10,925 nucleotides of DNA, taken from the NCBI GenBank assembly GCA_030649135.1, contig JAUSGI010000001.1:1-10925 (forward strand). Direction: 5' to 3'. The stretch comes from a bacterium (lineage in GTDB: Bacteria; Patescibacteriota; Minisyncoccia; Phycocordibacterales; Zambryskibacteraceae). Both the position numbers and the translations under genes were made by a program. The stretch's first letter is position 1. Each line of letters opens with the position of its first letter. Below are positions 389-10,925 of this stretch, one piece after another. The notes under the pieces are model-generated. The model made no database searches. It was not told where the DNA came from and saw only the letters and a list, made by a program, of their open reading frames with translations.

Positions 389-646
389 ATGCCGAAAAAT
401 AAGATTATCATCGCCCTAGGATTACTGATAGCGCTTCTGCCGCTTCTCGGGTTTCCTCGTCTCTGGGAGTCATTTTTCCAAGTAGCGACCGGGCTATCCA
501 TAGTACTTATTCTTGTCTGGGCTAGTATAGATAAACGTCTTTCTCTTAAGGCTAAAGCTCAAAGGCGCCAAATTCATAAACGCCGACAAGCAGAGATAGA
601 AGCCAGCAGGGCGACAGAATCCATCGTTCAGGAAGAAATACTCTGA
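389..646 (+). CDS. Small membrane protein, 85 aa, with two predicted TM helices and a basic C-terminal tail
   Basis: Supplied ORF. Hydrophobic stretches IIIALGLLIALLPLLGF and VATGLSIVLILVWA are followed by a Lys/Arg-rich tail. The stop TGA at 644-646 lies 1 nt before the next ATG, so the genes are coupled. A promoter sits immediately upstream. Confidence 0.45.
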   Translation: MPKNKIIIALGLLIALLPLLGFPRLWESFFQVATGLSIVLILVWASIDKRLSLKAKAQRRQIHKRRQAEIEASRATESIVQEEIL

Positions 647-647
647 C

Positions 648-1814
648 ATGTCGTGGTTCAAGCGAAGTCTCGTATCGGTTACCGCGGCAAGTTTCGCCAT
701 TTTTCTTATCACTATTCTGTTGCCATCGTTTTTCGAATCTACTTATGATGCATCAACCTCTCTCACGAATCAGCCCCAAGTAGCATCTGTTCAAGCTGTG
801 GTAGTCAGTCACCAAGAGACCCCCGTACCTCTTAGGGCGCTTTACATGACTGCTTGCGTGGCCGGTACTCCGTCCTGGCGCGAGAATTTGAAAAAACTGG
901 TTGAGACAACCGAACTCAATGCCGTGGTGATAGATATCAAAGATTACACAGGAGTGGTCTCTTTTCCCAACGAATTTCCCAAGACGAATCTTGGCCACGG
1001 GTGTGTAGTTTCCGATATGTCTGAATTTATACAAACGCTTCATGATACTAAGATTTATGTCATTGGACGCATCTCCGTTTTCCAGGACCCTTCTTACACC
1101 AAACTTTTTCCCGCACTCGCAGTTAGAAAGAAAAGTGATGGTGAAGTCTGGAAGGATTATAAGGGTCTTTCTTTTATTGATGTCGGGGCGAAGCCTTATT
1201 GGGATTATATTGTGGCAATTTCGGAAGAGGCTTACGCACTCGGATTTGATGAGCTCAATTATGACTATGTTCGCTATCCTTCCGATGGCAATATAAAAGA
1301 CGCACTCTATACTTGGGCTGTCGGTACGACTACAAAGCCGGAGATGCTTGAAAGTTTTTTTGAATATCTGAAAGATAATTTGGAACATACGGGAGCCAAA
1401 CTTTCTGTCGACCTTTTCGGCATGACCACTACCGTGGAGAATGATATGAATATTGGACAAGTGCTTGAACTGGCCTTGCCTTATTTTGATTATGTCAGCC
1501 CGATGGTTTATCCTTCGCACTATCCTCCCACGTGGAACGGTTTTGCCAAACCTGCCGAGCACCCGTATGAAGTAGTGAAATTTGCTATGGCAAGAGGCAT
1601 GGAACGCGAACGAACTTTAAATACAGCAAACGGCCTAGCCACATCCACTCCGTCCAAACTTCGGCCTTGGTTACAGGACTTCAATCTCGGTGCGACTTAT
1701 GGACCGGACAAAGTCCGTGCCCAAATCCAAGCAACTTATGATGTCGGTCTCTCAAGTTGGATGATTTGGAACGCGGGGAATAAATATACCACTTCCGCGC
1801 TTTTACCGGAGTAG
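648..1814 (+). CDS. Membrane-anchored TIM-barrel putative glycoside hydrolase (DUF4015/GHL-like family), 388 aa
   Basis: Supplied ORF. An N-terminal signal-anchor helix is present. Motifs NAVVIDIKDYTG and ELNYDYVRYPSDG are typical of the putative-glycosyl-hydrolase DUF4015/GHL families (family assignment from memory, moderate). Codon usage matches the rest of the window. Confidence 0.8.
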   Translation: MSWFKRSLVSVTAASFAIFLITILLPSFFESTYDASTSLTNQPQVASVQAVVVSHQETPVPLRALYMTACVAGTPSWRENLKKLVETTELNAVVIDIKDYTGVVSFPNEFPKTNLGHGCVVSDMSEFIQTLHDTKIYVIGRISVFQDPSYTKLFPALAVRKKSDGEVWKDYKGLSFIDVGAKPYWDYIVAISEEAYALGFDELNYDYVRYPSDGNIKDALYTWAVGTTTKPEMLESFFEYLKDNLEHTGAKLSVDLFGMTTTVENDMNIGQVLELALPYFDYVSPMVYPSHYPPTWNGFAKPAEHPYEVVKFAMARGMERERTLNTANGLATSTPSKLRPWLQDFNLGATYGPDKVRAQIQATYDVGLSSWMIWNAGNKYTTSALLPE

Positions 1815-1815
1815 C

Positions 1816-1844
1816 TTGACAATACCTTCTCTAAGGTGTATAAT
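1816..1844 (+). promoter_or_regulatory. Perfect consensus sigma70 promoter: TTGACA, 17-nt spacer, TATAAT, with TG immediately 5' of the -10
   Basis: TTGACA is at 1816-1821 and TATAAT at 1839-1844. The predicted TSS is at about 1851. Confidence 0.7.
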
Positions 1845-1891
1845 ACTAAGAGACGTAGAATTGGCCGAATTTCCGCTAAGGAGAGCTTAAA

Positions 1892-2236
1892 ATGCTCGCT
1901 TCCACGAAACCCAACAAGGTAAAGCTGTACCGGCATCCCGGACAGGTAACCTCGAGTCTGACTGTGCGCCGAATTCTCTTCGACTTCGAGAAGATGGGGG
2001 TTAAGTGTCTGAGTATCGAGGACGACATCGTGAAGGGGTGGTGCCGCAATCCGGCGACCTACCCGCAGGAATTCCGCGACAAGGTCCTCTACCTCGGGGG
2101 GAAGACCGAGGTTCGAGGAGGCTGCGAGTCGGTACCCTGCCTGACGTGGTTTCCAGGCCTGGTGTCCGAGAAGTGGCTGCCGCTCGATACCAAGATCGGA
2201 GACACGTTCGTTGTCGCTCGACTGGCATCGTTCTAG
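1892..2236 (+). CDS. Hypothetical 114-aa protein encoded in a GC-rich, compositionally foreign island; Cys-containing, no recognisable family
   Basis: A strong SD, AAGGAGAG at 1878-1885, lies 8 nt before ATG 1892, which is the first in-frame start after a TAA. Codon third positions are about 77% G/C while the region is about 58% GC. That period-3 bias argues for coding rather than ncRNA. The stop TAG at 2234-2236 comes just before the terminator. Confidence 0.7.
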   Translation: MLASTKPNKVKLYRHPGQVTSSLTVRRILFDFEKMGVKCLSIEDDIVKGWCRNPATYPQEFRDKVLYLGGKTEVRGGCESVPCLTWFPGLVSEKWLPLDTKIGDTFVVARLASF

Positions 2237-2246
2237 TTCTGCAGTT

Positions 2247-2290
2247 CGCCCGGCACCCACGCAAGTGAGTGCCGGGCGGTTTTGTTTTTT
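2247..2290 (+). terminator. Strong rho-independent terminator
   Basis: CGCCCGGCAC (2247-2256) pairs perfectly with GTGCCGGGCG (2269-2278) as a 10-bp stem with a 12-nt loop. GTTTTGTTTTTT follows. Confidence 0.85.
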
Positions 2291-2292
2291 GT

Positions 2293-2300
2293 TGTATAAT
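2293..2300 (+). promoter_or_regulatory. TGTATAAT extended -10-like element 7 nt upstream of the ATPase ATG; a leaderless configuration, and a direct repeat of 1837-1844
   Basis: The 8-mer is identical to the one in the consensus promoter at 1837-1844. There is no good -35 upstream, because that region is the terminator stem. Confidence 0.4.
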
Positions 2301-2307
2301 TAGCGCG

Positions 2308-3978
2308 ATGGCAGATTCGCCAAAAGACCAAGTAATATATTTTGCCGAGACAGACTCGCGTAATAACCGCAAGAAGTTTGGAATTAAGACCGAAGATCGC
2401 TCCAAACATGTCTATGTCATAGGTAAGACCGGCATGGGCAAGTCCACGCTTCTTGAGAACATGGCTATTCAGGATATTCAAAATGGCAACGGTATTGCTT
2501 TCATCGACCCTCATGGCGGTACGGCAGAAAAACTTTTGGATTTTGTGCCCAAAGAGCGCATCAAGGATGTGTTGTATTTCGCTCCTTTTGATACTGAATA
2601 TCCGGTTGCCTTTAACGTCATGGAAGATGTCGGCGCCAACAAACGGCATCTAGTAGTCAGCGGTCTTATGAGCGCCTTCATGAAGCTCTTCGGGGAAGAG
2701 AGTTTTTCCGACAGAATGCAGTACATTCTCCAGAATACCATTCTTGCTCTTCTTGAGTATCCCGGTTCGACCATGCTCGGTATCAATAAAATGCTCGTTG
2801 ATAAGGAATATCGAAAAAATGTAATAGCGAATATTACTGATCCGTCGGTTAAGGCCTATTGGACACAGGAATATGCCGGTTACACAGAACGTTTCGCCGC
2901 AGAAGCTATACCCGCCATTCAGAACAAGATAGGCCAGTTCACATCAAATCCACTCATCAGAAATATCATTGGTCAAGAGAAATCCAGTTTCAATCTTCGA
3001 AAAATCATGGACGAGAAGAAGATTGTAATCGTCAATCTTTCCAAAGGCCGCGTAGGTGAAGACAATGCCCGCCTGCTTGGCTCGATGTTAATTACCAAAA
3101 TATATCTGGCGGCCATGTCACGCGCCGACGAGCGCGCCTCCTCGCTTGCCAAGCTCCCGCCATTTTTTCTGTACGTAGACGAATTCCAATCATTTGCCGA
3201 CAAGTCCTTCGCCGATATTTTGTCGGAAGCTCGCAAATATAAACTCAACCTGACCATGGCTCATATGTATATAGAACAGATGGAAGAAGAAGTGCGCGAT
3301 GCCGTCTTCGGCAACGTCGGCACCATGATAGTCTTCCGCGTGGGGGCTTACGACGCCGATGTATTGGAAAAGGAATTTGCCCCGGTTTTTATTGCAGAGG
3401 ATTTGGTCAACTTGGGATTGCGCCAAATCTACCTCAAACTGATGATAGACTCGGTGGCATCGCCGCCATTCTCCGCCACCACCATGCCGCCAATGCAGTC
3501 TTCAGAGGTTTCCCACACGGAGGAAATTATAGAATATTCTCGCAAGACCTTCGCCCAGCCAAGAAGTGAGGTTGAGAAACGTATCACCGACTGGCATGAA
3601 GCAGGCCGAGTGGCGGTAAAGACCGCTCCGCCCAGAGTGTTTAGCGCGCCTCCGATAGTTAAACCACAGGAGAAAAGACCGATAGAGAAAGTAATCTTAC
3701 CTGTCATGCCCGCGCATGCAGGGCAGGTAGGGAGTAAAATAGAACCCAAACCGCTTCCAAGCATTTCTCTCGAAACTCTGAAAAAGAGCACTGATAATCA
3801 GCGCAAGCCGGACGCCAAGCATGTCGCTGACCTGCGAGATGCGCTCAGAGCCATGACAGGGAATCAGCCGAAGCTAGAGACACCACCCCAGCCTCAAGTA
3901 CAACCGGTACACCCCCAGCCGACCATAAAGAAGGAACCTAGTCAGGAAGAGCTCAAAAAAATCCTCGATGTCCAATAA
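2308..3978 (+). CDS. TraG/VirD4/TrwB-like (type IV coupling-protein-like) P-loop ATPase with no N-terminal TM segment and a Pro/Gln-rich disordered C-terminal tail
   Basis: Walker A is VIGKTGMGKST, followed by IAFIDPHGG. Walker B is FFLYVDEFQSF, then NVGTMIVFRVG. This pattern is typical of the VirD4/TraG/DUF87 ATPase family. The start is taken as ATG 2308 (MADSPKDQ...) rather than the track's GTG 2269, which lies inside the terminator hairpin. The stop TAA at 3976-3978 overlaps the next gene. Confidence 0.8.
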   Translation: MADSPKDQVIYFAETDSRNNRKKFGIKTEDRSKHVYVIGKTGMGKSTLLENMAIQDIQNGNGIAFIDPHGGTAEKLLDFVPKERIKDVLYFAPFDTEYPVAFNVMEDVGANKRHLVVSGLMSAFMKLFGEESFSDRMQYILQNTILALLEYPGSTMLGINKMLVDKEYRKNVIANITDPSVKAYWTQEYAGYTERFAAEAIPAIQNKIGQFTSNPLIRNIIGQEKSSFNLRKIMDEKKIVIVNLSKGRVGEDNARLLGSMLITKIYLAAMSRADERASSLAKLPPFFLYVDEFQSFADKSFADILSEARKYKLNLTMAHMYIEQMEEEVRDAVFGNVGTMIVFRVGAYDADVLEKEFAPVFIAEDLVNLGLRQIYLKLMIDSVASPPFSATTMPPMQSSEVSHTEEIIEYSRKTFAQPRSEVEKRITDWHEAGRVAVKTAPPRVFSAPPIVKPQEKRPIEKVILPVMPAHAGQVGSKIEPKPLPSISLETLKKSTDNQRKPDAKHVADLRDALRAMTGNQPKLETPPQPQVQPVHPQPTIKKEPSQEELKKILDVQ

Positions 3979-5062
3979 ACGCATTCTAATATTTTCCCTC
4001 GCATATTATCCGGTGGAAGGCGGTGCAGAGATTGCAGTTAAAGAAATCACCAATCGTATTTCCGACATTGAATTTGACATGATTACTTTGCGTTTCGATC
4101 AGGCACACTTGCCTAAAGAGAAAATAGGGAATTGCACGGTATATCGTATAAACACCTCTAAGAATCTATACCCGTTTAGAGCTTTTTTATTTGCCCGGAA
4201 GTTGCATAAAAACCGGCCATACGATGCTACATGGGCCATTATGGCCAATTGGGCTGGATTTGCTGCGCTCTTTTTCAAGTTTTATTTTCCAAGTGTACCC
4301 TATGCACTCAACCTACAAGAAGGTGATCCCATCTCCTATATCAAACATAAGGTCTGGTTTGTCTACCCCTTGTTCAAAAGGATTTTTCTCTATGCGGACA
4401 TTATCCAGGCCATTTCAAAATATTTAGCAGACTGGGCACGAGAGATGGGTTACGAGGGACGATTAGAAGTGATACCCAACGGAGTAAATGTAAAAAGATT
4501 TGAAAACGAGAATCCAAAAGCTAAAAACGAGACAATCACTCTTATAACCACCTCCCGCCTTGTAGAGAAGAATGCTGTCGGAGATATCATAGATGCTTTA
4601 AAATTCCTGCCAGTGAATATGAAATTAAAGATTCTTGGCACGGGACCACTAGAATCGGATTTGAAGCAAAAAACTAAAGATCAGAGTTTGGAGAGTAGGG
4701 TAGAATTTTTAGGAAATATTCTTAATGATAATCTGCCAAAATATTTACACGAAGCCGATATTTTTATCAGACCATCACTTTCGGAAGGTATGGGCATCTC
4801 GTTTATTGAAGCTATGGCTGCCGGTTTGCCGGTCATTGCCACACCAGTTGGCGGTATTCCGGATTTTCTGAAAGATAGAGAGACTGGACTCTTCTGCAGA
4901 GTTAATGACCCAAAAAGTATTGCAGATAAAGTGATGGAGTATGTAAATAATCCCAAACTGGCATCTCAAATTGTAAAAAATGCAAAAGAAATGGTCGTTA
5001 GGAAATACGACTGGGACTTGATTGCGGAGGAGATGAAAAGGCAAGTTTTTGATAAAGTGTAG
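3968..5062 (+). CDS. GT4-family (GT-B fold) glycosyltransferase
   Basis: EGMGISFIEAMAAGLPVIATPVGGIPDF is an E-X7-E motif in a GT4 C-terminal domain. The start overlaps the upstream stop by 11 nt, consistent with translational coupling. Confidence 0.9.
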   Translation: MSNKRILIFSLAYYPVEGGAEIAVKEITNRISDIEFDMITLRFDQAHLPKEKIGNCTVYRINTSKNLYPFRAFLFARKLHKNRPYDATWAIMANWAGFAALFFKFYFPSVPYALNLQEGDPISYIKHKVWFVYPLFKRIFLYADIIQAISKYLADWAREMGYEGRLEVIPNGVNVKRFENENPKAKNETITLITTSRLVEKNAVGDIIDALKFLPVNMKLKILGTGPLESDLKQKTKDQSLESRVEFLGNILNDNLPKYLHEADIFIRPSLSEGMGISFIEAMAAGLPVIATPVGGIPDFLKDRETGLFCRVNDPKSIADKVMEYVNNPKLASQIVKNAKEMVVRKYDWDLIAEEMKRQVFDKV

Positions 5063-5064
5063 AT

Positions 5065-6069
5065 ATGCGCATTCTTATAGTCACAGGTATATATCCTCCT
5101 GAAATAGGGGGCCCGGCTGAATATGCCCTAAACCTCAAAGATACTTGGGTAAGGCAGGGCCATAAGGTAAAGGTCAAGATTTTTGGCCGATTTAGAAAAA
5201 TTCCATGGGGTATAAGGCATGTAATATTTCTTGTTTATATTTTGCCATCAGTAATGTGGTCAGACTGTATTTTTACACTCGATGCCTTTACTGCGGGAGT
5301 GTCTACTGTGGCCTCAAAGTTATTCAATAAGAAAAACATCTTCCGTACGGGAGGGGACGCGCTCTGGGAGCTATATGTAGAAAGAACGAACGATTTGGTT
5401 TTGTTACGGGATTTTTATAGAACGAGGCTTAAAAAATTGTCTGTGAAAGAGAAAGTAACATTCCATCTGATGAAATGGGCCCTACGAAATTTGTCCGCTA
5501 TTATCTGGAGTACCGAATGGCAGAAGAATATTTTCATGGAGCCGTATCATCTTTCTCGGCAAAACCATTTCATCGTGGAGAATTACTATGGGCCGAAGCT
5601 GGAATCGCGAAGGCCTGCAACCAAGAATTTTATCGCTGGGACTCGAAAGCTGAAATGGAAAAATATCGTGTTAGTTCAAAAAGTTTTTGAGCATAAGGAT
5701 ACCAAAGAGTCCGGAGCTATTTTGGATACTAGCATTGTCCATCACGACGAGTTTCTCAATAAGTTAAGCCAATCTTACGCTGTTATCATCGCCTCGCTAG
5801 GTGATATTAGCCCGAATACGATATTGGATGCCATAAGGTGTGGCAAACCCTTCATTCTGACTAGAGAAAATGGTCTCTACAGCCGTATTAAGGATATCGG
5901 TCTCTTTGTTGATCCCCAAGACGAGGAAGATATCAAAAGCAAGGTCCTTTGGCTCGTGCAAGAGGGCAATTATGCGAGCCAAAAGGCTAAGATTGATAGT
6001 TTCAGCTTCAGTCATACCTGGGAAGAAATTGCCGGAGAGTACATAACAGCTTTTAACTCAATCAAATGA
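5065..6069 (+). CDS. Divergent GT-B fold glycosyltransferase (GT4-like N-terminal domain)
   Basis: MRILIVTGIYPPEIGGPAEY is a typical GT4 N-terminal motif. The C-terminal half is Rossmann-like without a clean EX7E. The ATG lies 2 nt after the upstream TAG. Confidence 0.75.
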   Translation: MRILIVTGIYPPEIGGPAEYALNLKDTWVRQGHKVKVKIFGRFRKIPWGIRHVIFLVYILPSVMWSDCIFTLDAFTAGVSTVASKLFNKKNIFRTGGDALWELYVERTNDLVLLRDFYRTRLKKLSVKEKVTFHLMKWALRNLSAIIWSTEWQKNIFMEPYHLSRQNHFIVENYYGPKLESRRPATKNFIAGTRKLKWKNIVLVQKVFEHKDTKESGAILDTSIVHHDEFLNKLSQSYAVIIASLGDISPNTILDAIRCGKPFILTRENGLYSRIKDIGLFVDPQDEEDIKSKVLWLVQEGNYASQKAKIDSFSFSHTWEEIAGEYITAFNSIK

Positions 6070-7196
6070 AAGTTTTAATGATCTCAAGTGATAGGAATAT
6101 TTTGGTTCCCGGGAGCGCTGTTTCGGAGCGGATGAAAGAGTATGGAAATTTAGTCGAAGAGCTTCATATTGTGCTTATGTCAGATGCACGGCACAAATTG
6201 AAGGATAAGCAGTTGTCGAATAATGTATGGGTCTACACAACGAATTCCCCGATGACTTTTATGCGTCCGTTCAATGCCGCTCGGCTTGGCAGAAAAGTGG
6301 TATTTGATAGTCAGTTTGTGCGGGGGCGATCCATTATCACCACCCAAGATCCTTTCGAGTGTGGATGGGCTGGATTAAGGATAAAGAAGAGATGGAAGAT
6401 ACCATTGGAAGTACAACTGCATACTGACCCGTTTTCACCGTATTTTTCTGGTTTATTAAATCAGATCCGAAAAATTATTGCGAGAAGAGTTTTGCGTAAT
6501 GCCAATAGTGTACGGGTGGTTACTCTCGGTCTTAAAACTAAAGTTTCCGCTTTTACTTCTGCCGACATTAGTGTCTTGCCGATATATGTTGACCGTAAGC
6601 ACATTGAGGAGGCGAAAATTTCCTTTGACCTGCATACGCGTTATCCTTGGCATTTTATTCTGCTTGCCGTCTCGCGTCTTGCACCAGAGAAGAATCTTAG
6701 TCTGGCTCTTCGGGTGCTTGTACTTGTGCGAGAAAGATTCCCGGATACGGGACTGGTGATAGTCGGCTCTGGTCCGGAAGAAGGGCGGCTTAAGGCACTT
6801 ACTCAAAAGCTTAAACTTGTAGGAGCGGTTGAGTTTGTGGGTTGGCAGGACGATTTAACTTCCTTTTATAAAACTGCCAATGTCTTTATTCAAACCTCTA
6901 TCTTTGAGGGTTATGGCCTGTCATTAGTGGAGGCTGGTCTGTCCGACTTACCGGTCGTTACCACACCGGTTGGCATTGCACAAGAGTTGGAGAATGGTAA
7001 GGACGCATATATATATCCTGCAAATAATATCGAGGCTTTCGCAAATGGCATTGTAGACTTAATCGAGAATAATCAAAAGCGTGAAAACTTGCGTTTAAAC
7101 ATGAAGCAAACTCTCGAGGTAATGCTTATATCTAAAGGAGAATATCTAAAGGAGCTAAAGTCCAGTTGGGAGAAAACTGCTTTAAAGGTTAATTAG
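6066..7196 (+). CDS. GT4-family (GT-B fold) glycosyltransferase
   Basis: The segment LAVSRLAPEKN...EGYGLSLVEAGLSDLPVVTTPVG carries an EX7E motif. There is an ATGA start/stop overlap with the upstream gene. Confidence 0.9.
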   Translation: MKVLMISSDRNILVPGSAVSERMKEYGNLVEELHIVLMSDARHKLKDKQLSNNVWVYTTNSPMTFMRPFNAARLGRKVVFDSQFVRGRSIITTQDPFECGWAGLRIKKRWKIPLEVQLHTDPFSPYFSGLLNQIRKIIARRVLRNANSVRVVTLGLKTKVSAFTSADISVLPIYVDRKHIEEAKISFDLHTRYPWHFILLAVSRLAPEKNLSLALRVLVLVRERFPDTGLVIVGSGPEEGRLKALTQKLKLVGAVEFVGWQDDLTSFYKTANVFIQTSIFEGYGLSLVEAGLSDLPVVTTPVGIAQELENGKDAYIYPANNIEAFANGIVDLIENNQKRENLRLNMKQTLEVMLISKGEYLKELKSSWEKTALKVN

Positions 7197-7443
7197 AACA
7201 GGGAAGCTGTGGATAAGTATAAGATATTAGAAATTAAATCAACATAGCCATAATAGTCATAAGAATGGGTCAATGCACATTATGAATATAATTATAAAGG
7301 TTTTTCTTAATAAAATTAAAATAGTTTATTAAGGTTTAATAATGTTTGTAAATCTTTCTACTCGGACTTAAAAAGCATAAGTTCACTACTTTTTGAGTCT
7401 TCATTCTATCCTTATTTTATAAGGCATTTTACCAATTTTTACT

Positions 7444-7452
7444 TGGTATAAT
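7444..7452 (+). promoter_or_regulatory. Extended -10 element TGGTATAAT (identical 9-mer to the one at 372-380), with a weak -35
   Basis: It lies at the end of a 275-bp region of about 75% AT. The predicted TSS at about 7459 falls just after an in-frame TAG (7456-7458) and 12 nt before the TTG start. Confidence 0.45.
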
Positions 7453-7470
7453 CATTAGACAACAAATAAT

Positions 7471-10400
7471 TTGAAAGCCCAAAGATTGCTAGCAACTGGA
7501 TTGAGCGGTTTTATAATCGGAATTTTGGTTCTCAGTTTTTTAGGGGTATCTTTAAATAAGGTTTTTGCGGCGGGACCACCCTCAATTTTGAGCTATCAAG
7601 GTCGCCTTACTAATGCTTCAGGAAGTCTTCTTGGTGGTTCATCCGGAACTACTTTCTATTTCAAATTTTCAATATGGAGTGCTGCTAGTGGCGGGGCAAA
7701 GCTCTGGCCAGCATCCGACCCGACATCTTATGGCATTACGGTCAGAGAAGGCGTATTCAATGTAAATATTGGCGACACTACGAATGGTTATCCAGATACG
7801 CTTAATTATGATTTCTCGACGAGCACGAATGTATTTTTAAAGGTTGAAGTTTCTGATGATGATGTTGATTTTGAAACTCTCACTCCGCGACAGCAAATCA
7901 ATTCTGTCGCTTTTGCTCAAGTGGCGGGGGCGGTAGTTAGTGCATCTTCCACCATCGCCAATCTCACTGGTACTAACGCCACTACTACCAATGCTACTTC
8001 CACAAATTTCTTTAGTACTACAGCATCTTCAACAAATCTTTTTTCTGCCGCCATAACTTCAGGCTCTGCTATCTTTGCGAATCTTTTGGTAACCAGCTCA
8101 TCAACGCTCCAAAATTTCACTTTCACAAATGCTACAGGAACTTCCGCTACTACGACCAATCTCTTCTCCACCACTGCATCATCTTCCAACTTATTCACGG
8201 CATTATTCAACGGCGCTGGGTTAGCCACTTGCCAATCGAACAACGTCCTCACCTGGTCTGGTGGTATTTTCGGTTGCGAAACGGACGACAACACCTTCGC
8301 ATGGACTCCCATCTCTTACGGTACTCAAAACGTAGTTGCGACATCGACCGGCCTCTGGCTCAAAGGCTCACCTCTAGGCTTAGTTGCTTCTTCTACTTTC
8401 GCCACTTACTCCACCTCGACCAATGCCACCTCGACTAACTTTTTCTCTACTATCGCTTCGTCTACCAGTCTTTTCACATCAGCTTTGACCGTGAATGGCT
8501 TCGCCTTCACGGTCAATGGCGCTCCCACTTTGAACGACTGGTTCGACCAGTCCCTTAAGATCTCGGACGGGCCCGCTTTTTCCACTATCGATACTGGCCA
8601 TGGGGGTAATGAGCTCTATGCTATGGACCAAAACGTTCGGATCTCCGACGACGTAATCTTCGACGAACTCTTGCTAACCGGTTCTTCCACTTTGAGAAAT
8701 TTCACCTTCTTAAACGCCACCGGCACTTCCGCTACTACCACTAACTTCTTCGCCACGAATGCAAGTTCGACAAATCTCTTTACTACTCGACTTGGCATTG
8801 GCACTTCAAACCCCAGCAGTGCTCTAGAAGTTAATGGTGATATTCGTATCACCGCGAATTCCGGAGGGCGTCTCTACTTTAGTGATAGTTCCACACAAAA
8901 TAGTGCAATCGTGTCGGGAAGTGGTATTACAAGTTGGAGCGACTTGAATTTTCAAACCGGCGGAATCATGAACTTCCAAACCGGTAATGGTCTCGGCACC
9001 GCTACCACTACTCATATGGTTTTGGCTAATAACGGTAATATCGGGATTGGTACCACAACCCCAGGCACCCCGCTTGCTGTCACCGGTGCCGGAGTATTTA
9101 CTGGGTTAGTGACGGCACCCTTTTTCAATGCCACTTCTACAACCGATGTTTCTAATTTCCAACAAGTTCTCGTCCTTGCTTCCTCCACTCTTCAAAACTT
9201 TACTTTCTTAAACGCCACCGGCACTTCTGCTACTACCACTAGCTTCTTTGCTACTGTTTTAAATGCTACTACTGCTTCCACCACTAATCTTTTAGTAACC
9301 AGCTCATCAACGCTCCAAAATTTCACTTTCACAAATGCTACAGGAACTTCCGCCACCACCACCAATCTTTTCTCCACCACCGCATCATCTTCCAACTTAT
9401 TCACAGCATTATTCAACGGTGCCGGTCTTGCCACCTGCCAAACCAACAACGTCCTCACCTGGTCTGGTGGTATTTTCGGTTGCGAAACGGACGACAACAC
9501 CTTCGCATGGACTCCCACCTCTTACGGTACTCAAAACGTAGTTGCGACATCGACCGGTTTATGGCTCAAAGGTTCGCCTCTAGGCTTAATTGCCTCTTCT
9601 ACTTTCGCCACTTACTCCACCTCGACCAATGCTACTTCTACTAATTTCTTTGCCACCACGGCTTCATCCACTAGTCTTTTCGCAGCGGTCTTATCATCAG
9701 GCTCCGCCACCCTCGGCGATCTTTTACTTAACAGCTCATCGACACTCCAAAACTTTACTTTCCTAAATGCTACTGGCACTAACGCTACCACTACCAATAT
9801 TTTCTCCACCACTGCTTCTTCTACTAATCTTTTCACCGCTCTTTTCAATGGCGCTGGTCTTGCTACCTGCCAGACCAACAACATGCTCACTTGGGCTGGA
9901 GGAACATTCGGTTGCGAGGTTGATAATGATACCTTCGAATGGACTCCCACCGCTTGGGGCAACTCTACTTCCACCACTCTCGGTTTCTCGCAAGGTTTCC
10001 TCTCTACCGCTTCTTCTACCATAGACTCCAACTTGATTATCACTGGTAACTCCACTACTACCAACGCCACCACTACCAATATTTTCTCCACCACCGCATC
10101 ATCAACCGGTCTTTTTGCAGCGGTTTTATCATCAGGCTCCGCCACCTTCGGCGATCTTTTAATAAATAGCTCATCGACACTCCAAAACTTTACTTTCTTA
10201 AATGCTACTGGCACTAACGCTACCACTACCAATATTTTCTCCACCACCGCATCCACCACTAACTTCTTTGGTGCTGACTTAACCCCATGTACTTCAAATA
10301 ACGTCTTGACTTGGACAGGGGGGAAGTTTGGCTGTGAAGCAGATGACACCGGTAGTGCCACCTTCGGCAAAGACTGGAACATCTTTACCGTTGGCCGGCT

Positions 10401-10925
10401 TGCCCCGACTACCACAGTGGCTGTTTATGTGGGAGCAACCACCACAGCCTCCCTTACCAACAACTCGTACTTCCAAGTGAATGCGACTTCCACTACTGGA
10501 GACTTAATCGTGGCTTCTTCCTCCCAGGACTTCACTGGCAACTTCTTAAGATTCCTCAATGCCGCTGGTGCAACTCTCTTCTCTGTTGATAATACCGGTT
10601 CTTTGATTGCCGCTTCCACTACTTTCACCAACGCTACCTCGACCAATCTCTTCTCCACCACCGCATCTTCATCGAACCTCTACACCGCTCTCTTTAATGG
10701 CGCCGGTCTTGCCACTTGCCAAACCAACAACGTCCTCACCTGGGCCGGTGGAGAGTTCGGTTGCGAAGCGGATGATAGCGGCAGCGCTGGCTTCGGCAAA
10801 ACTTTTGAAATGTCCAACACCAACTTCCTCGCTCCCACCACCACGGTCTCGGTGATTATCGGCTCCACCACCACCCCGGACAAAAGCGCTTTATTCCAAG
10901 TGAACGCCACCGGCACCACAGGTAA
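7471..10925 (+). CDS. Giant secreted Thr/Ser/Asn-rich tandem-repeat surface protein, 3'-partial (at least 1,151 codons; continues beyond the window)
   Basis: I translated the frame by hand from TTG 7471 (TTG 7486 is an alternative start) to the window end and found no stop codon. The N-terminus, KAQRLLATGLSGFIIGILVLSFLGVSLNKVFA|AG, is a signal peptide. The body consists of repeated modules S-T-L-Q-N-F-T-F-x-N-A-T-G-T-x-A-T-T-T-N-x-F-S-T-T-A-S-S-x-N-L-F followed by A-L-F-N-G-A-G-L-A-T-C-Q-T-N-N-V-L-T-W-x-G-G-x-F-G-C-E-x-D-D. The ORF track omits it because no stop lies in the window and the start is TTG. Confidence 0.85.
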   Translation, partial: MKAQRLLATGLSGFIIGILVLSFLGVSLNKVFAAGPPSILSYQGRLTNASGSLLGGSSGTTFYFKFSIWSAASGGAKLWPASDPTSYGITVREGVFNVNIGDTTNGYPDTLNYDFSTSTNVFLKVEVSDDDVDFETLTPRQQINSVAFAQVAGAVVSASSTIANLTGTNATTTNATSTNFFSTTASSTNLFSAAITSGSAIFANLLVTSSSTLQNFTFTNATGTSATTTNLFSTTASSSNLFTALFNGAGLATCQSNNVLTWSGGIFGCETDDNTFAWTPISYGTQNVVATSTGLWLKGSPLGLVASSTFATYSTSTNATSTNFFSTIASSTSLFTSALTVNGFAFTVNGAPTLNDWFDQSLKISDGPAFSTIDTGHGGNELYAMDQNVRISDDVIFDELLLTGSSTLRNFTFLNATGTSATTTNFFATNASSTNLFTTRLGIGTSNPSSALEVNGDIRITANSGGRLYFSDSSTQNSAIVSGSGITSWSDLNFQTGGIMNFQTGNGLGTATTTHMVLANNGNIGIGTTTPGTPLAVTGAGVFTGLVTAPFFNATSTTDVSNFQQVLVLASSTLQNFTFLNATGTSATTTSFFATVLNATTASTTNLLVTSSSTLQNFTFTNATGTSATTTNLFSTTASSSNLFTALFNGAGLATCQTNNVLTWSGGIFGCETDDNTFAWTPTSYGTQNVVATSTGLWLKGSPLGLIASSTFATYSTSTNATSTNFFATTASSTSLFAAVLSSGSATLGDLLLNSSSTLQNFTFLNATGTNATTTNIFSTTASSTNLFTALFNGAGLATCQTNNMLTWAGGTFGCEVDNDTFEWTPTAWGNSTSTTLGFSQGFLSTASSTIDSNLIITGNSTTTNATTTNIFSTTASSTGLFAAVLSSGSATFGDLLINSSSTLQNFTFLNATGTNATTTNIFSTTASTTNFFGADLTPCTSNNVLTWTGGKFGCEADDTGSATFGKDWNIFTVGRLAPTTTVAVYVGATTTASLTNNSYFQVNATSTTGDLIVASSSQDFTGNFLRFLNAAGATLFSVDNTGSLIAASTTFTNATSTNLFSTTASSSNLYTALFNGAGLATCQTNNVLTWAGGEFGCEADDSGSAGFGKTFEMSNTNFLAPTTTVSVIIGSTTTPDKSALFQVNATGTTG
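8083..8476 (+). repeat. Intragenic direct repeat, copy A (about 390 nt), paired with 9289..9682
   Basis: The offset is exactly 1206 nt with no indels. Roughly nine in ten nucleotides are identical by eye across the compared core (8091-8230 vs 9297-9436). Nearly all differences are synonymous third positions, and the proteins differ at only about 3 of roughly 118 residues. Confidence 0.8.
9289..9682 (+). repeat. Intragenic direct repeat, copy B, paired with 8083..8476
   Basis: See copy A. Confidence 0.8.

What the first reader, a model, noticed from the sequence alone, without database searches (positions are those of the whole stretch)
2308..7196. Translationally coupled operon: a TM-less TraG/VirD4-like ATPase followed by three GT4 glycosyltransferases
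Four genes have overlapping or abutting start and stop codons: 3968/3978, 5062/5065 and 6066/6069. The first has coupling-protein-type Walker A/B motifs (GKTGMGKST, IDPHGG, VDEFQSF) but lacks the N-terminal membrane anchor of canonical VirD4/TrwB. It ends in a tail of about 130 aa rich in Pro/Gln/Lys that is probably disordered. Coupling such an ATPase to three GT-B glycosyltransferases is not a canonical conjugation, polysaccharide or N-glycosylation locus. There is no initiating phosphoglycosyl transferase, flippase or oligosaccharyltransferase. It suggests cytoplasmic, sequential glycosylation of a protein substrate with an ATPase acting in substrate handling or export.
Basis: partly seen in the sequence, partly recalled or inferred. 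Interest (0 to 1): 0.6.

Follow-up and report, generated by a model that had tools for sequence, protein, structure and literature searches.

The report
Orphan VirD4-like ATPase in glycan operon
A membrane-anchor-less relative of the conjugation "coupling" ATPases sits in a tightly packed operon with three sugar-transferring enzymes, and this arrangement is kept across one large group of ultra-small (Patescibacteria) bacteria; the sugar enzymes look like ordinary cell-envelope glycan builders, and what the ATPase does is still unknown.

Summary
Four + strand genes (2308-3978, 3968-5062, 5065-6069, 6066-7196) overlap or abut. The first is a TM-less, catalytically intact VirD4/TrwB-fold ATPase with a ~125-aa disordered Pro/Lys-rich tail. 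The other three are GT4-type glycosyltransferases, the middle one divergent.

The window is a whole 10.9-kb Patescibacteria MAG contig. In 80 related Paceibacteria loci the block "2-TM protein, DUF4015, ATPase, GT4 genes" persists while the outer flanks change:
- DUF4015 lies upstream in 54/58 loci.
- A GT-A orthologue lies downstream in 58/68.
- All three GTs are present in 34/52.

The "cytoplasmic protein glycosylation plus export" reading is not supported:
- Relatives carry an initiating phosphoglycosyl transferase, a Wzx-type flippase, GT-C enzymes, and GtrA directly after or fused to GT-C. These indicate a lipid-linked envelope glycan.
- The adjacent Ser/Thr-rich giant protein is not conserved.
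- Sister ATPase clades lack DUF4015 (0/80 loci), and only one has a GT-A-like gene. Many carry an N-terminal TM+DUF8128 extension. A few sampled loci sit near ComEC, DprA or TopA, and 4 of 150 representatives carry an S1 domain.

The ATPase belongs to the orphan T4CP homologues already reported in Patescibacteria. Its operon link to glycan genes appears undescribed. Its role is unresolved.

The parts
389..646 (+). Small membrane protein (85 aa) with a two-helix hairpin and a basic C-terminal tail. It is the first gene of the conserved block.
   Evidence: Hydrophobic windows are present. A small ORF with 2 hydrophobic segments and the motif LPxLGxPxxWK ends at the DUF4015 start in 53 of 61 related loci, and 59 of 61 have at least 1 segment. 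No Pfam match.
648..1814 (+). DUF4015 putative glycoside hydrolase (388 aa) with an N-terminal membrane anchor, presumably outside the cytoplasm.
   Evidence: Pfam PF13200, E 1.7e-90. Hydrophobic segment at residues 6-26. The only solved relative is 4s1a, an uncharacterised protein. It lies upstream of the ATPase in 54 of 58 loci.
1816..2289 (+). Inserted high-GC cassette: a consensus promoter (1816-1844), orf114 (1892-2236) and a hairpin terminator (2246-2279, then a U-run to 2289). It is not part of the conserved block and it insulates the ATPase operon from DUF4015 transcription.
   Evidence: The promoter matches 12 of 12 consensus positions. orf114 has GC3 of 76.5% against a window GC of 45%. 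The hairpin folds at -30.2 kcal/mol, z -5.2. It is absent from the 80 loci. One homologous cassette exists, in L086.
2308..3978 (+). TM-less VirD4/TrwB-fold P-loop ATPase (556 aa). The core is about residues 1-430 (2308-3597). The disordered Pro/Lys-rich tail with conserved short motifs is about residues 431-556 (3598-3975).
   Evidence: TATAAT lies at 2295-2300, 7 nt before the ATG (read directly).
3968..5062 (+). GT-A: GT4 glycosyltransferase (364 aa) with an EX7E motif.
   Evidence: Glycos_transf_1 E 1.5e-36 and Glyco_transf_4 E 4.6e-9. All NCBIfam equivalog matches are far below their cut-offs. The closest solved relatives are BshA, PimB, TarM and PglA types. An orthologue lies downstream of the ATPase in 58 of 68 loci.
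5065..6069 (+). GT-B: divergent GT-B-fold/GT4-like glycosyltransferase (334 aa) with DX7D in place of EX7E. The public record calls it hypothetical.
   Evidence: Glyco_trans_1_4 scores 29.6 bits against a cut-off of 27. hhalign against the GT-A profile gives 97.5%, E 5e-12, and the acidic motif is conserved in 37 orthologues. Record name.
6066..7196 (+). GT-C: GT4 glycosyltransferase (376 aa) with an EX7E motif. In relatives it is followed by, or fused to, a GtrA membrane domain.
   Evidence: Glycos_transf_1 E 6.9e-34. GtrA lies directly after or fused in 24 of 43 loci. The window has no GtrA.

Best explanation
This is a lineage-specific operon, conserved in Paceibacteria (Parcubacteria), that sits at the edge of a cell-envelope glycan locus.

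The glycosyltransferases (inferred from family and neighbours): the three GT4 enzymes most likely add sugars in turn to a lipid-linked, undecaprenyl-phosphate-type acceptor at the inner face of the membrane. In relatives an initiating phosphoglycosyl transferase, GtrA, a flippase and GT-C enzymes complete the pathway.

The ATPase: it is one of the orphan type IV coupling-protein (T4CP) homologues that are abundant in Patescibacteria. Shown: it has the fold and intact catalytic motifs, has no membrane anchor or DUF8128 domain, is not next to any T4SS gene here or in the annotated relatives, and is stably linked to the 2-TM protein, DUF4015 and the GT4 genes. Inferred: it forms an ATP-driven ring. 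It is held at the membrane through its motif-bearing tail or through the 2-TM and DUF4015 proteins. It handles a polymer, more likely nucleic acid than glycan or glycoprotein. Its operon link reflects co-expression with envelope remodelling, not a direct step in glycosylation.
For: - Fold and family. Catalytic residues are invariant.
- Block kept while flanks change: DUF4015 upstream in 54/58 loci, GT-A downstream in 58/68 (39 within 150 nt), all three GTs in 34/52. By contrast RsmI appears in 23, MurD in 18 and SecDF in about 11 of the loci. The 2-TM protein is present in 53-59 of 61.
- Lipid-linked glycan context in relatives: Bac_transf, GtrA (adjacent or fused to GT-C in 24/43), GT2, YdjC, PMT_2, UbiA, an epimerase and a Wzx-type flippase.
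- Where the GT4 trio is missing (6 of 52 loci), the five loci that keep DUF4015 upstream (L012, L023, L045, L065, L067) have convergent GT2, GT11 or GT4-like genes, or a MurD gene followed by such genes, after the ATPase (GT2-like and GT11-like N-termini read; Pfam confirmed for one GT2, one GT11, one weak GT4-like and MurD in L012 and L023). L078 has neither.
- Hints of nucleic acid in the wider family: an S1 domain in the tail of 4 of 150 representatives, including a short form at 66% identity. Neighbours include DprA and TopA in L083, TopA in L084 and a HARE-HTH protein in both (L085 has none of these), and ComEC in L088. Tails are basic.
- Literature: 5,713 VirD4-like T4CP homologues were found in 2,918 Patescibacteria genomes, only 148 of them near virB4, and the authors raised exaptation as a possibility (PMC12102498).
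Against: - No experiment or expression data exist.
- The block is kept far better than its flanks, which would also fit a direct role of the ATPase in glycan or glycoprotein handling.
- The nucleic-acid hints come from other clades of the family and are few: 4 of 150 fusions and a handful of loci.
- In the window a strong terminator and a foreign cassette separate DUF4015 from the ATPase, so the block is not one transcript here.
- The window lacks GtrA and every other membrane component, so for this genome the pathway is inferred from relatives only.
Confidence: 0.4

Rival explanations
1. One reading: the three GTs glycosylate a protein substrate step by step in the cytoplasm (for example the Ser/Thr-rich giant protein next door), and the ATPase unfolds, chaperones or exports it. 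This would be analogous to accessory-Sec glycoprotein export.
For: - The ATPase and GT genes are translationally coupled and the coupling is conserved.
- A 1,151+ aa secreted-looking protein with 32% Ser+Thr and 33 N-x-S/T sequons starts 275 nt downstream.
- GT-C has weak similarity to SdgA and GtfA.
- T4CP relatives can translocate proteins (general knowledge).
Against: - The giant protein is absent from that position in 40 relatives, none of which has a Ser/Thr-rich ORF there.
- The giant protein has its own promoter-like site (read).
- The SdgA and GtfA scores are 77 and 52 bits against cut-offs of 800 and 575.
- Relatives carry Bac_transf, GtrA, a flippase and GT-C enzymes, typical of lipid-linked pathways.
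- The ATPase tail motif is kept in loci with and without GT neighbours.
- No SecA2/SecY2-like or channel gene is present in the window.
Confidence: 0.08
2. The ATPase has been recruited as a true component of a new glycan assembly or export machine (2-TM protein + DUF4015 + ATPase + GTs). It would supply energy or act as a scaffold for polymer secretion across the envelope.
For: - The block is kept at 85-93% while the flanks are kept at 40% or less.
- Five of the six loci without the GT4 trio still have other glycan genes, or MurD followed by such genes, next to the ATPase.
- The tail carries conserved docking-type motifs.
Against: - No known polysaccharide pathway uses an FtsK/HerA-type motor.
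- Sister clades work without glycan neighbours: 0/80 loci have DUF4015 and 1/80 a GT-A-like gene.
- Unrelated genes (pilin, LigT-like, the orf114 cassette) are often inserted inside the block.
- The tail motif does not co-vary with GT presence.
Confidence: 0.17
3. The 2-TM protein, DUF4015 and ATPase form a minimal envelope-crossing DNA (or RNA) transfer or uptake module: a wall glycosidase plus a coupling-type motor, as in monoderm conjugation. The GT genes are bystanders of the neighbouring glycan locus.
For: - The ATPase is homologous to DNA translocases.
- S1 domain fusions occur.
- ComEC, DprA and TopA lie near sister-clade genes.
- DUF4015-ATPase adjacency (54/58) is at least as strong as ATPase-GT adjacency.
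- DUF4015 is found fused to YkyA, a domain that partners cell-wall deacetylases (PMC12700454).
Against: - No DNA-binding, relaxase or channel protein is present in the block.
- The substrate of DUF4015 is unknown.
- GT-A is immediately downstream, often overlapping, in most loci.
- The T4CP homologue of a cultured Saccharibacterium was reported as non-essential for epibiotic growth (PMC12102498).
Confidence: 0.2
4. The linkage has no functional meaning. The ATPase is a conserved housekeeping-type gene that marks the border of a variable glycan locus, much as conserved genes flank O-antigen clusters.
For: - The ATPase is the best conserved gene: in the tblastn comparison the ATPase matches are 55-84% identical and the orthologue-level matches of GT-A are about 38-78%, of GT-B about 32-63% and of GT-C about 28-66%.
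- Its GC3 is higher than that of the GTs (0.54 against 0.40-0.46).
- GT content downstream varies, and GT2 or GT11 genes replace the trio in some loci.
Against: Same strand, overlapping or under 40-nt junctions in most loci, and persistence across lineages whose outer flanks differ, all argue for a selected co-transcription unit.
Confidence: 0.15

Closest known systems
Type IV coupling proteins (VirD4 / TrwB / DotL / Cag-beta; Pfam T4SS-DNA_transf, TrwB_AAD_bind, TraG-D_C)
   Same: - Same FtsK/HerA-superfamily P-loop core with an inserted helical domain. These are the best structural matches (Foldseek E 4e-10 to 1e-8, target TM-score about 0.6).
- TrwB is the only solved protein that the family profile matches, apart from a marginal P-loop-only hit (E 0.06) (E 3e-4).
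- A C-terminal extension carries short conserved motifs, as in TraD and DotL tails.
   Different: - No N-terminal transmembrane domain.
- No T4SS or relaxase genes nearby.
- NCBIfam TraD, CD1115 and CedD scores are 25-40 bits against cut-offs of 250-650.
- Only 12-15% identity to solved T4CPs.
Orphan VirD4-like T4CP homologues of Patescibacteria (PMC12102498, 2025)
   Same: The window protein is annotated [quoted passage not shown] and belongs to this population: 5,713 homologues in 2,918 genomes, only 148 near virB4, with exaptation raised as a possibility.
   Different: In the passages retrieved from that paper (a term search; 'glycosyl' does not occur in its text) no genomic context with DUF4015 or GT4 genes is reported, nor a split into TM-less short forms and TM+DUF8128 long forms. 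Both are shown here.
Long-form CPR paralogues: TM + DUF8128 (PF26449) + T4CP-like ATPase; PHROG_5156
   Same: The ATPase domain is 45-55% identical, including the conserved beta-hairpin before the P-loop. The window protein matches PHROG_5156 at E 8e-61 over profile positions 401-805.
   Different: - Long forms carry about 400 extra N-terminal residues with 1-2 TM helices and DUF8128.
- They lie after SecD-SecF, or near TopA, DprA or HARE-HTH genes, with no DUF4015 or GT4 genes.
- The window and its 80 relatives have no DUF8128 nearby.
HerA / HerA-like defence ATPases (Sir2-HerA, DUF4297-HerA), PADLOC mad8
   Same: Same superfamily. Pfam DUF87 (E 9e-7) and second-tier structural matches. PADLOC mad8 matches at E 3.5e-16.
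   Different: There is no HAS-barrel-type N-domain of HerA size, no NurA, Sir2 or other effector partner, and no defence-island context. It is a near-universal syntenic gene in this clade.
Accessory Sec (SecA2/Y2) glycoprotein export with GtfA/GtfB, and SdgA/SdgB
   Same: The concept matches: cytoplasmic GT4 enzymes encoded beside an export ATPase and a Ser-rich surface protein.
   Different: - No SecA2, SecY2 or Asp genes.
- GtfA and SdgA scores are far below their cut-offs.
- The Ser/Thr-rich neighbour is not conserved.
Lipid-linked envelope glycan loci (Bac_transf-initiated Wzx-type clusters; GtrA/GtrB/GT-C three-component glycosylation)
   Same: GT4 enzymes in series. Relatives add Bac_transf, an epimerase, GtrA (adjacent or fused to GT-C), GT2, PMT_2 GT-C enzymes and a Wzx-type flippase.
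   Different: Such loci are not known to include an FtsK/HerA-type ATPase or DUF4015. The window itself holds only the three GT4 genes.

Membership tests
Type IV coupling protein (VirD4/TrwB) | FtsK/HerA-type nucleotide-binding domain with Walker A and B motifs | tested here: met
   Motifs lie at residues 39 and 290 and are invariant in 40 homologues. Foldseek's best hits are DotL and TrwB.
Type IV coupling protein (VirD4/TrwB) | All-alpha domain inserted in the NBD; Pfam TrwB_AAD_bind or T4SS-DNA_transf above the gathering score | tested here: inconclusive
   The model has a helical insert at about residues 110-235. TrwB_AAD_bind scores 21.8 bits against a cut-off of 20.5. T4SS-DNA_transf was not reported for the window protein in my scan, but it is precomputed for most homologues.
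Type IV coupling protein (VirD4/TrwB) | N-terminal transmembrane anchor | tested here: not met
   The highest 19-residue hydropathy mean is 1.04 and no window reaches 1.6. The protein starts at the beta-hairpin before the P-loop.
Type IV coupling protein (VirD4/TrwB) | Encoded with a T4SS (VirB4 and others) or a relaxase | tested here: not met
   The window has no such gene, nor do the Pfam-annotated loci L081 and L082 within 10 kb either side. The literature finds only 148 of 5,713 near virB4. Whole genomes were not examined.
Type IV coupling protein (VirD4/TrwB) | Hexameric ring that binds and translocates DNA or protein substrates | not testable with these tools
   Only a monomer model could be made.
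GT4 glycosyltransferases (GT-B fold, retaining) | Glycos_transf_1 C-terminal domain above the Pfam cut-off, with an EX7E motif | tested here: met
   GT-A scores 126 bits and GT-C 117 bits against a cut-off of 26.4. EGMGISFIE and EGYGLSLVE are read. GT-B: Glyco_trans_1_4 29.6 against 27, hhalign 97.5% against the GT-A profile, and a conserved [DE]x7[DE] motif.
GT4 glycosyltransferases (GT-B fold, retaining) | Assignment to a named equivalog (donor and acceptor known) | tested here: not met
   All NCBIfam matches are far below their cut-offs. The best are EpsE at 121 against 400 and BshA at 107 against 274. GT-B has none.
Accessory-Sec type glycoprotein export | SecA2/SecY2/Asp genes, a GtfA-GtfB pair and an adjacent conserved Ser-rich substrate | tested here: not met
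   No such genes in the window. GtfA scores 48-52 bits against a cut-off of 575. The Ser/Thr-rich neighbour is absent in 40 relatives.
Lipid-linked (polyprenyl-phosphate) envelope glycan locus | Initiating phosphoglycosyl transferase, flippase or GtrA, and downstream polymerase, ligase or GT-C enzymes in the same locus | tested here: inconclusive
   Met in relatives: Bac_transf, GtrA after or fused to GT-C in 24/43 loci, PMT_2 and a Wzx-type flippase. Not present in the 10.9-kb window. The rest of this genome could not be searched.
HerA helicase / HerA-type defence systems | HAS-barrel N-domain plus a nuclease or effector partner (NurA, Sir2, DUF4297) | tested here: not met
   Only a two-strand hairpin precedes the P-loop. 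There are no partner genes. PADLOC HerA models match only short stretches.

The most novel reading that the evidence does not exclude
In Paceibacteria a coupling-protein-type ring ATPase lost its own membrane domain and was recruited, together with a 2-TM hairpin protein and the membrane-anchored DUF4015 glycosidase-like protein, into a previously unknown ATP-driven machine. That machine would assemble or export a cell-surface glycan or glycoconjugate made by the co-translated GT4 enzymes. It would be the first FtsK/HerA-type motor in glycan secretion.
Probability: 0.15. Interest if true: 0.8.

Novelty: new variant of a known kind. Interest (0 to 1): 0.45.

Why it matters
Patescibacteria genomes hold thousands of T4CP-like ATPases that are not next to any secretion system, and a 2025 survey left their role open. 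This window shows that one large clade of them is TM-less. That clade is locked into an operon with a 2-TM protein, a DUF4015 glycosidase-like protein and GT4 glycosyltransferases at the edge of the envelope-glycan locus. Sister clades instead carry TM+DUF8128 extensions; a few sampled loci lie near DNA-uptake or DNA-processing genes and a few representatives carry an S1 domain. This gives concrete, testable partners (the 2-TM protein, DUF4015, GT-A) and a family structure for asking what these motors do in organisms that depend on surface contact with hosts. If the ATPase really works on the glycan pathway, it would be a new secretion principle. If not, the locus is an ordinary glycan operon with a conserved neighbour.

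Tried and rejected
- Structured RNA in 1815-2307: Rfam found nothing at gathering score, and only a chance NrrF match at E 0.62. blastn found nothing in the 80 loci and nhmmer only one non-significant match (E 0.55). The GC3 of 76.5% and a conserved ORF in L086 show a protein-coding cassette.
- The giant Ser/Thr-rich protein as a conserved glycosylation target: no tblastn match and no Ser/Thr-rich ORF after GT-C in 40 relatives. No Pfam domain.
- Defence-system reading: the GT4-conflict Pfam hits are weak (30 bits), and PADLOC has no GT hits, only mad8 and HerA fragments for the ATPase. The near-universal synteny does not fit a defence island.
- Remnant of DUF8128 upstream of the ATPase: no tblastn hit in the window or the 80 loci.
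- Tail motif co-varying with GT neighbours: no association (Fisher p = 1.0 with a regex that missed some motif variants). By eye the motif is present in all six listed loci that lack the GT4 trio.
- DUF4015 function from solved structures: only 4s1a, an uncharacterised protein, even with a 41-sequence profile.
- Clean monophyly of short against long forms: a neighbour-joining tree gave one large short-form block containing the window, but other short forms are mixed among long forms. Some of these may be split gene calls.

Full report
**What is in the window**

The window is a complete 10,925-bp contig of an uncultured Patescibacteria MAG (locus tags Q7R69_000xx). Every gene discussed is already called in the public record:
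- the ATPase as [quoted passage not shown];
- GT-A as "glycosyltransferase family 4 protein";
- GT-B as "hypothetical protein";
- GT-C as "glycosyltransferase";
- the upstream gene as "putative glycoside hydrolase".

The + strand carries, in order:
- a tRNA-Ile(GAT) on the minus strand at 253-326;
- an 85-aa two-helix membrane protein (389-646);
- a DUF4015 protein with an N-terminal anchor (648-1814; Pfam E 1.7e-90);
- a high-GC cassette (1816-2289);
- the four genes of the finding (2308-7196);
- after a 275-nt AT-rich spacer, a very long repeat-protein gene that runs off the contig (from TTG 7471).

**Check of the observation**

The coordinates and junctions are exact: an 11-nt overlap at 3968/3978, a 2-nt spacer at 5062/5065, and an ATGA overlap at 6066/6069.

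The ATPase:
- It carries GKTGMGKST (residue 39), IDPHGG (66) and VDEFQSF (290). The Walker residues are invariant across 40 homologues.
- It has no hydrophobic segment; the maximum 19-residue hydropathy is 1.04.
- It ends in a ~125-aa tail with 16% Pro, 12% Lys and 8% Gln, which AlphaFold2 leaves disordered (pLDDT <50 for 435-502 and 516-544).
- The tail is not featureless. NQRKP occurs in 104 of 120 close homologues. A terminal motif of the type (E/I)PE[DE]xL[KR]xxL occurs in at least 100 of 120.

The glycosyltransferases:
- GT-A and GT-C are clear GT4 enzymes with EX7E motifs.
- GT-B barely passes Pfam. It aligns over its full length to the GT-A orthologue profile (hhalign 97.5%, E 5e-12) and keeps a conserved [DE]x7[DE] motif in 37 orthologues.

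"Three GT4-type transferases" is therefore correct, with GT-B a divergent member.

**What the ATPase is**

- Pfam gives DUF87/HerA (E 9e-7) and TrwB_AAD_bind (E 1e-4), both just above their cut-offs.
- NCBIfam gives only sub-threshold TraD, CD1115 and CedD matches.
- A 40-sequence profile matches TrwB among solved structures (E 3e-4; the only other match is a marginal P-loop-only hit, E 0.06).
- The AlphaFold2 model (core pLDDT mostly 85-95) is closest to DotL, TrwB, HerA, Cag-beta and VirB4 (Foldseek E 4e-10 to 1e-6).

It is a coupling-protein-type member of the FtsK/HerA superfamily without the membrane anchor.

The family is very large. More than 8,000 close homologues were scored. An exhaustive search gave 5,909 clusters (50% identity) at E <= 1e-30.

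Many relatives at 45-55% identity are "long forms". They carry about 400 extra N-terminal residues: one or two TM helices plus DUF8128 (PF26449). A neighbour-joining tree puts the window in a large block of short forms, with long forms and a few other short forms beside it.

A 2025 survey had already counted 5,713 VirD4-like T4CP homologues in 2,918 Patescibacteria genomes. Only 148 lay near virB4, and the authors raised possible exaptation (PMC12102498).

**Conservation of the linkage**

I fetched 80 loci from species-representative genomes (Zambryskibacteria, Taylorbacteria, Lloydbacteria, Nomurabacteria and other Paceibacteria), with ATPase identity of 55-84%.

| Feature | Count |
|---|---|
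| GT-A orthologue downstream, same strand (loci with >=1.5 kb downstream) | 58 of 68 |
| GT-A start within 150 nt of the ATPase stop (gaps -11 to +105) | 39 of 68 |
| All three GTs present (loci with >=6 kb downstream) | 34 of 52 |
| All three GTs in the order A-B-C | 32 of 52 |
| DUF4015 upstream | 54 of 58 |
| 2-TM protein (motif LPxLGxPxxWK) directly before DUF4015 | 53-59 of 61 |

As a control, genes further out differ by lineage: RsmI in 23 loci, MurD in 18, Bac_transf-SecD-SecF in 10-11. The block is therefore kept much better than general synteny.

**What the GT genes are part of**

The argument that no initiating transferase, flippase or oligosaccharyltransferase exists is an effect of the short contig.
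- In relatives, Bac_transf lies 5-10 kb upstream.
- In relatives the operon continues after GT-C. A GtrA membrane protein follows directly or is fused to GT-C in 24 of 43 loci. Further genes include GT4 and GT2 enzymes, YdjC, PMT_2-type GT-C enzymes, an epimerase and a UbiA-type protein.
- A Wzx-type flippase occurs in the flanking cluster of L067.
- Of the six loci that lack the GT4 trio, the five that keep DUF4015 upstream have convergent GT2, GT11 or GT4-like genes, or MurD followed by such genes, after the ATPase. L078 has neither.

This is the make-up of lipid-linked envelope glycan synthesis. The window has none of these extra genes; here the cluster stops at GT-C.

It has 32% Ser+Thr, 33 sequons and repeat units of about 144 aa. 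However, it has its own promoter-like site and is not found after GT-C in any of 40 relatives.

**What the wider family says about the ATPase**

I sampled a sister clade with 80 metagenome loci around P0190-like proteins.
- None has DUF4015 and one has a GT-A-like gene.
- Many have DUF8128 in front and SecD-SecF upstream.
- One locus has ComEC 3 kb downstream, and two have a second T4CP-like gene.
- Of the three annotated long-form loci (one named Saccharimonadia in the hit list), two follow TopA and a HARE-HTH protein, one of them also DprA; the third has neither.
- Four of 150 representatives carry an S1 (OB-fold) domain in the tail, including a short form 66% identical to the window protein (E 3.6e-22).
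- Tails are mildly basic in 89% of short forms.
- The terminal tail motif is present whether or not GT genes are adjacent.

These hints point towards nucleic acid rather than glycan or glycoprotein, but they are few and come mostly from other clades.

**Explanation and rivals**

Best supported (confidence about 0.4): the GT4 trio is an ordinary part of a lipid-linked envelope-glycan pathway. The ATPase is an orphan, TM-less T4CP-type ring motor that in this clade is co-transcribed with it and with the 2-TM and DUF4015 pair. Its substrate is unproven and is more likely nucleic acid. The linkage most likely reflects co-expression with envelope remodelling.

Rivals:
- direct recruitment into a new glycan-export machine (0.17);
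- a DUF4015 + ATPase DNA-transfer or uptake module, with the GTs as bystanders (0.20);
- a meaningless border-gene linkage (0.15);

Shown: gene structure, fold, motifs, absence of TM, conservation of the block, glycan-pathway genes in relatives, and absence of the linkage in sister clades.

Inferred: hexamer formation, membrane recruitment, lipid-linked acceptor, substrate of the ATPase, and operon transcription in this genome.

**Transcription signals in the window**

A perfect sigma-70-type promoter (1816-1844) drives orf114. A hairpin of -30.2 kcal/mol (z -5.2) followed by a U-run ends 17 nt before the ATPase ATG. A TATAAT box at 2295-2300 lies 7 nt before ATG 2308 (read). This would give a leaderless or near-leaderless ATPase-GT transcript, unless read-through occurs. 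This is inference only.

**Novelty and score**

The protein family and its orphan status are known. I found no paper describing three things: the TM-less clade, its fixed block with the 2-TM protein, DUF4015 and GT4 genes, and the contrast with TM+DUF8128 relatives. The literature search covers open-access text only.

I rate it a new variant of a known kind, with interest 0.45. It is a solid, conserved and unexplained association that sharpens an open question, but no evidence yet shows that the ATPase acts in glycosylation.

Noticed in passing
window 1816-2289 (orf114 at 1892-2236); L086 2404-2890: A self-contained foreign-looking cassette lies between DUF4015 and the ATPase. It has a 12/12 consensus promoter, an AAGGAG ribosome-binding site, a 114-aa ORF with GC 58.6% and GC3 76.5% (window GC 45%), and a strong terminator. 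It has no Pfam, Rfam, PHROG or PADLOC match. Among 5.8 billion proteins it has one homologue (78% identity), in another Parcubacteria MAG, again directly after DUF4015. There the promoter, RBS, ORF and terminator are all conserved (84% nt identity), but a convergent Mur ligase follows instead of the ATPase.
   Followed up: yes
L007, L019, L021, L026, L028, L046, L076 (gap between DUF4015 and the ATPase): Seven related loci carry a type IV pilin-like gene (GFTLIELLVV N-terminus; Pfam N_methyl confirmed for L021) at the same junction where the window has the orf114 cassette. The junction behaves as an insertion hotspot for small genes.
   Followed up: partly
window 7471-10923 (+), runs off the contig end: A giant secreted-looking protein of more than 1,151 aa starts at TTG 7471. 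It has a signal-anchor-like N-terminus, 32% Ser+Thr, 33 N-x-S/T sequons and Cys-containing repeat modules of about 144 aa (432-nt DNA repeats, some spaced 1,206 nt apart). It has no Pfam domain and is not conserved at this position in relatives. A TATAAT-containing promoter-like site lies at about 7443-7451.
   Followed up: partly
P0127, P0195, P0226, P0236 (family representatives): Four of 150 representatives of the ATPase family carry an S1 (OB-fold, RNA/ssDNA-binding) domain in the C-terminal tail. The strongest is in a TM-less short form 66% identical to the window protein (E 3.6e-22).
   Followed up: partly
P0174, P0187, P0189 and others; L083-L085; L114-L165: Many CPR relatives are long forms with an N-terminal TM region plus DUF8128 (PF26449), a domain for which no paper was found. 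They often follow SecD-SecF, and in some long-read contigs DUF8128 and the ATPase are called as separate genes. PHROG_5156 (unknown function) has the same long architecture, so the family also occurs in phage or prophage collections.
   Followed up: partly
L101 11825-13339; L111 11567-13015; L088 12238-13689: In the P0190-like sister clade, two T4CP-like ATPase genes can lie about 2 kb apart, in L101 separated by an unannotated protein of about 580 aa (in L111 by two smaller ORFs). One locus has ComEC (the DNA-uptake channel) 3 kb downstream.
   Followed up: no
L034 14937-16505: The GT-C orthologue is fused to a GtrA/DPMS transmembrane domain in one 522-aa protein. In 24 of 43 loci a separate GtrA gene directly follows or is fused to GT-C. 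This ties that transferase to membrane, lipid-linked sugar chemistry.
   Followed up: yes
window 2295-2308: The only -10-like box for the ATPase operon (TATAAT, 2295-2300) ends 7 nt before ATG 2308 and directly follows the terminator U-run. This suggests a leaderless mRNA or dependence on terminator read-through.
   Followed up: no
window 2308-7196: GC3 falls from 0.54 in the ATPase to 0.40-0.46 in the three GT genes. The ATPase is also much better conserved than the GTs in the tblastn comparison: ATPase matches 55-84% identical against about 28-78% for the orthologue-level GT matches. This resembles a conserved gene next to a faster-evolving glycan cluster.
   Followed up: partly
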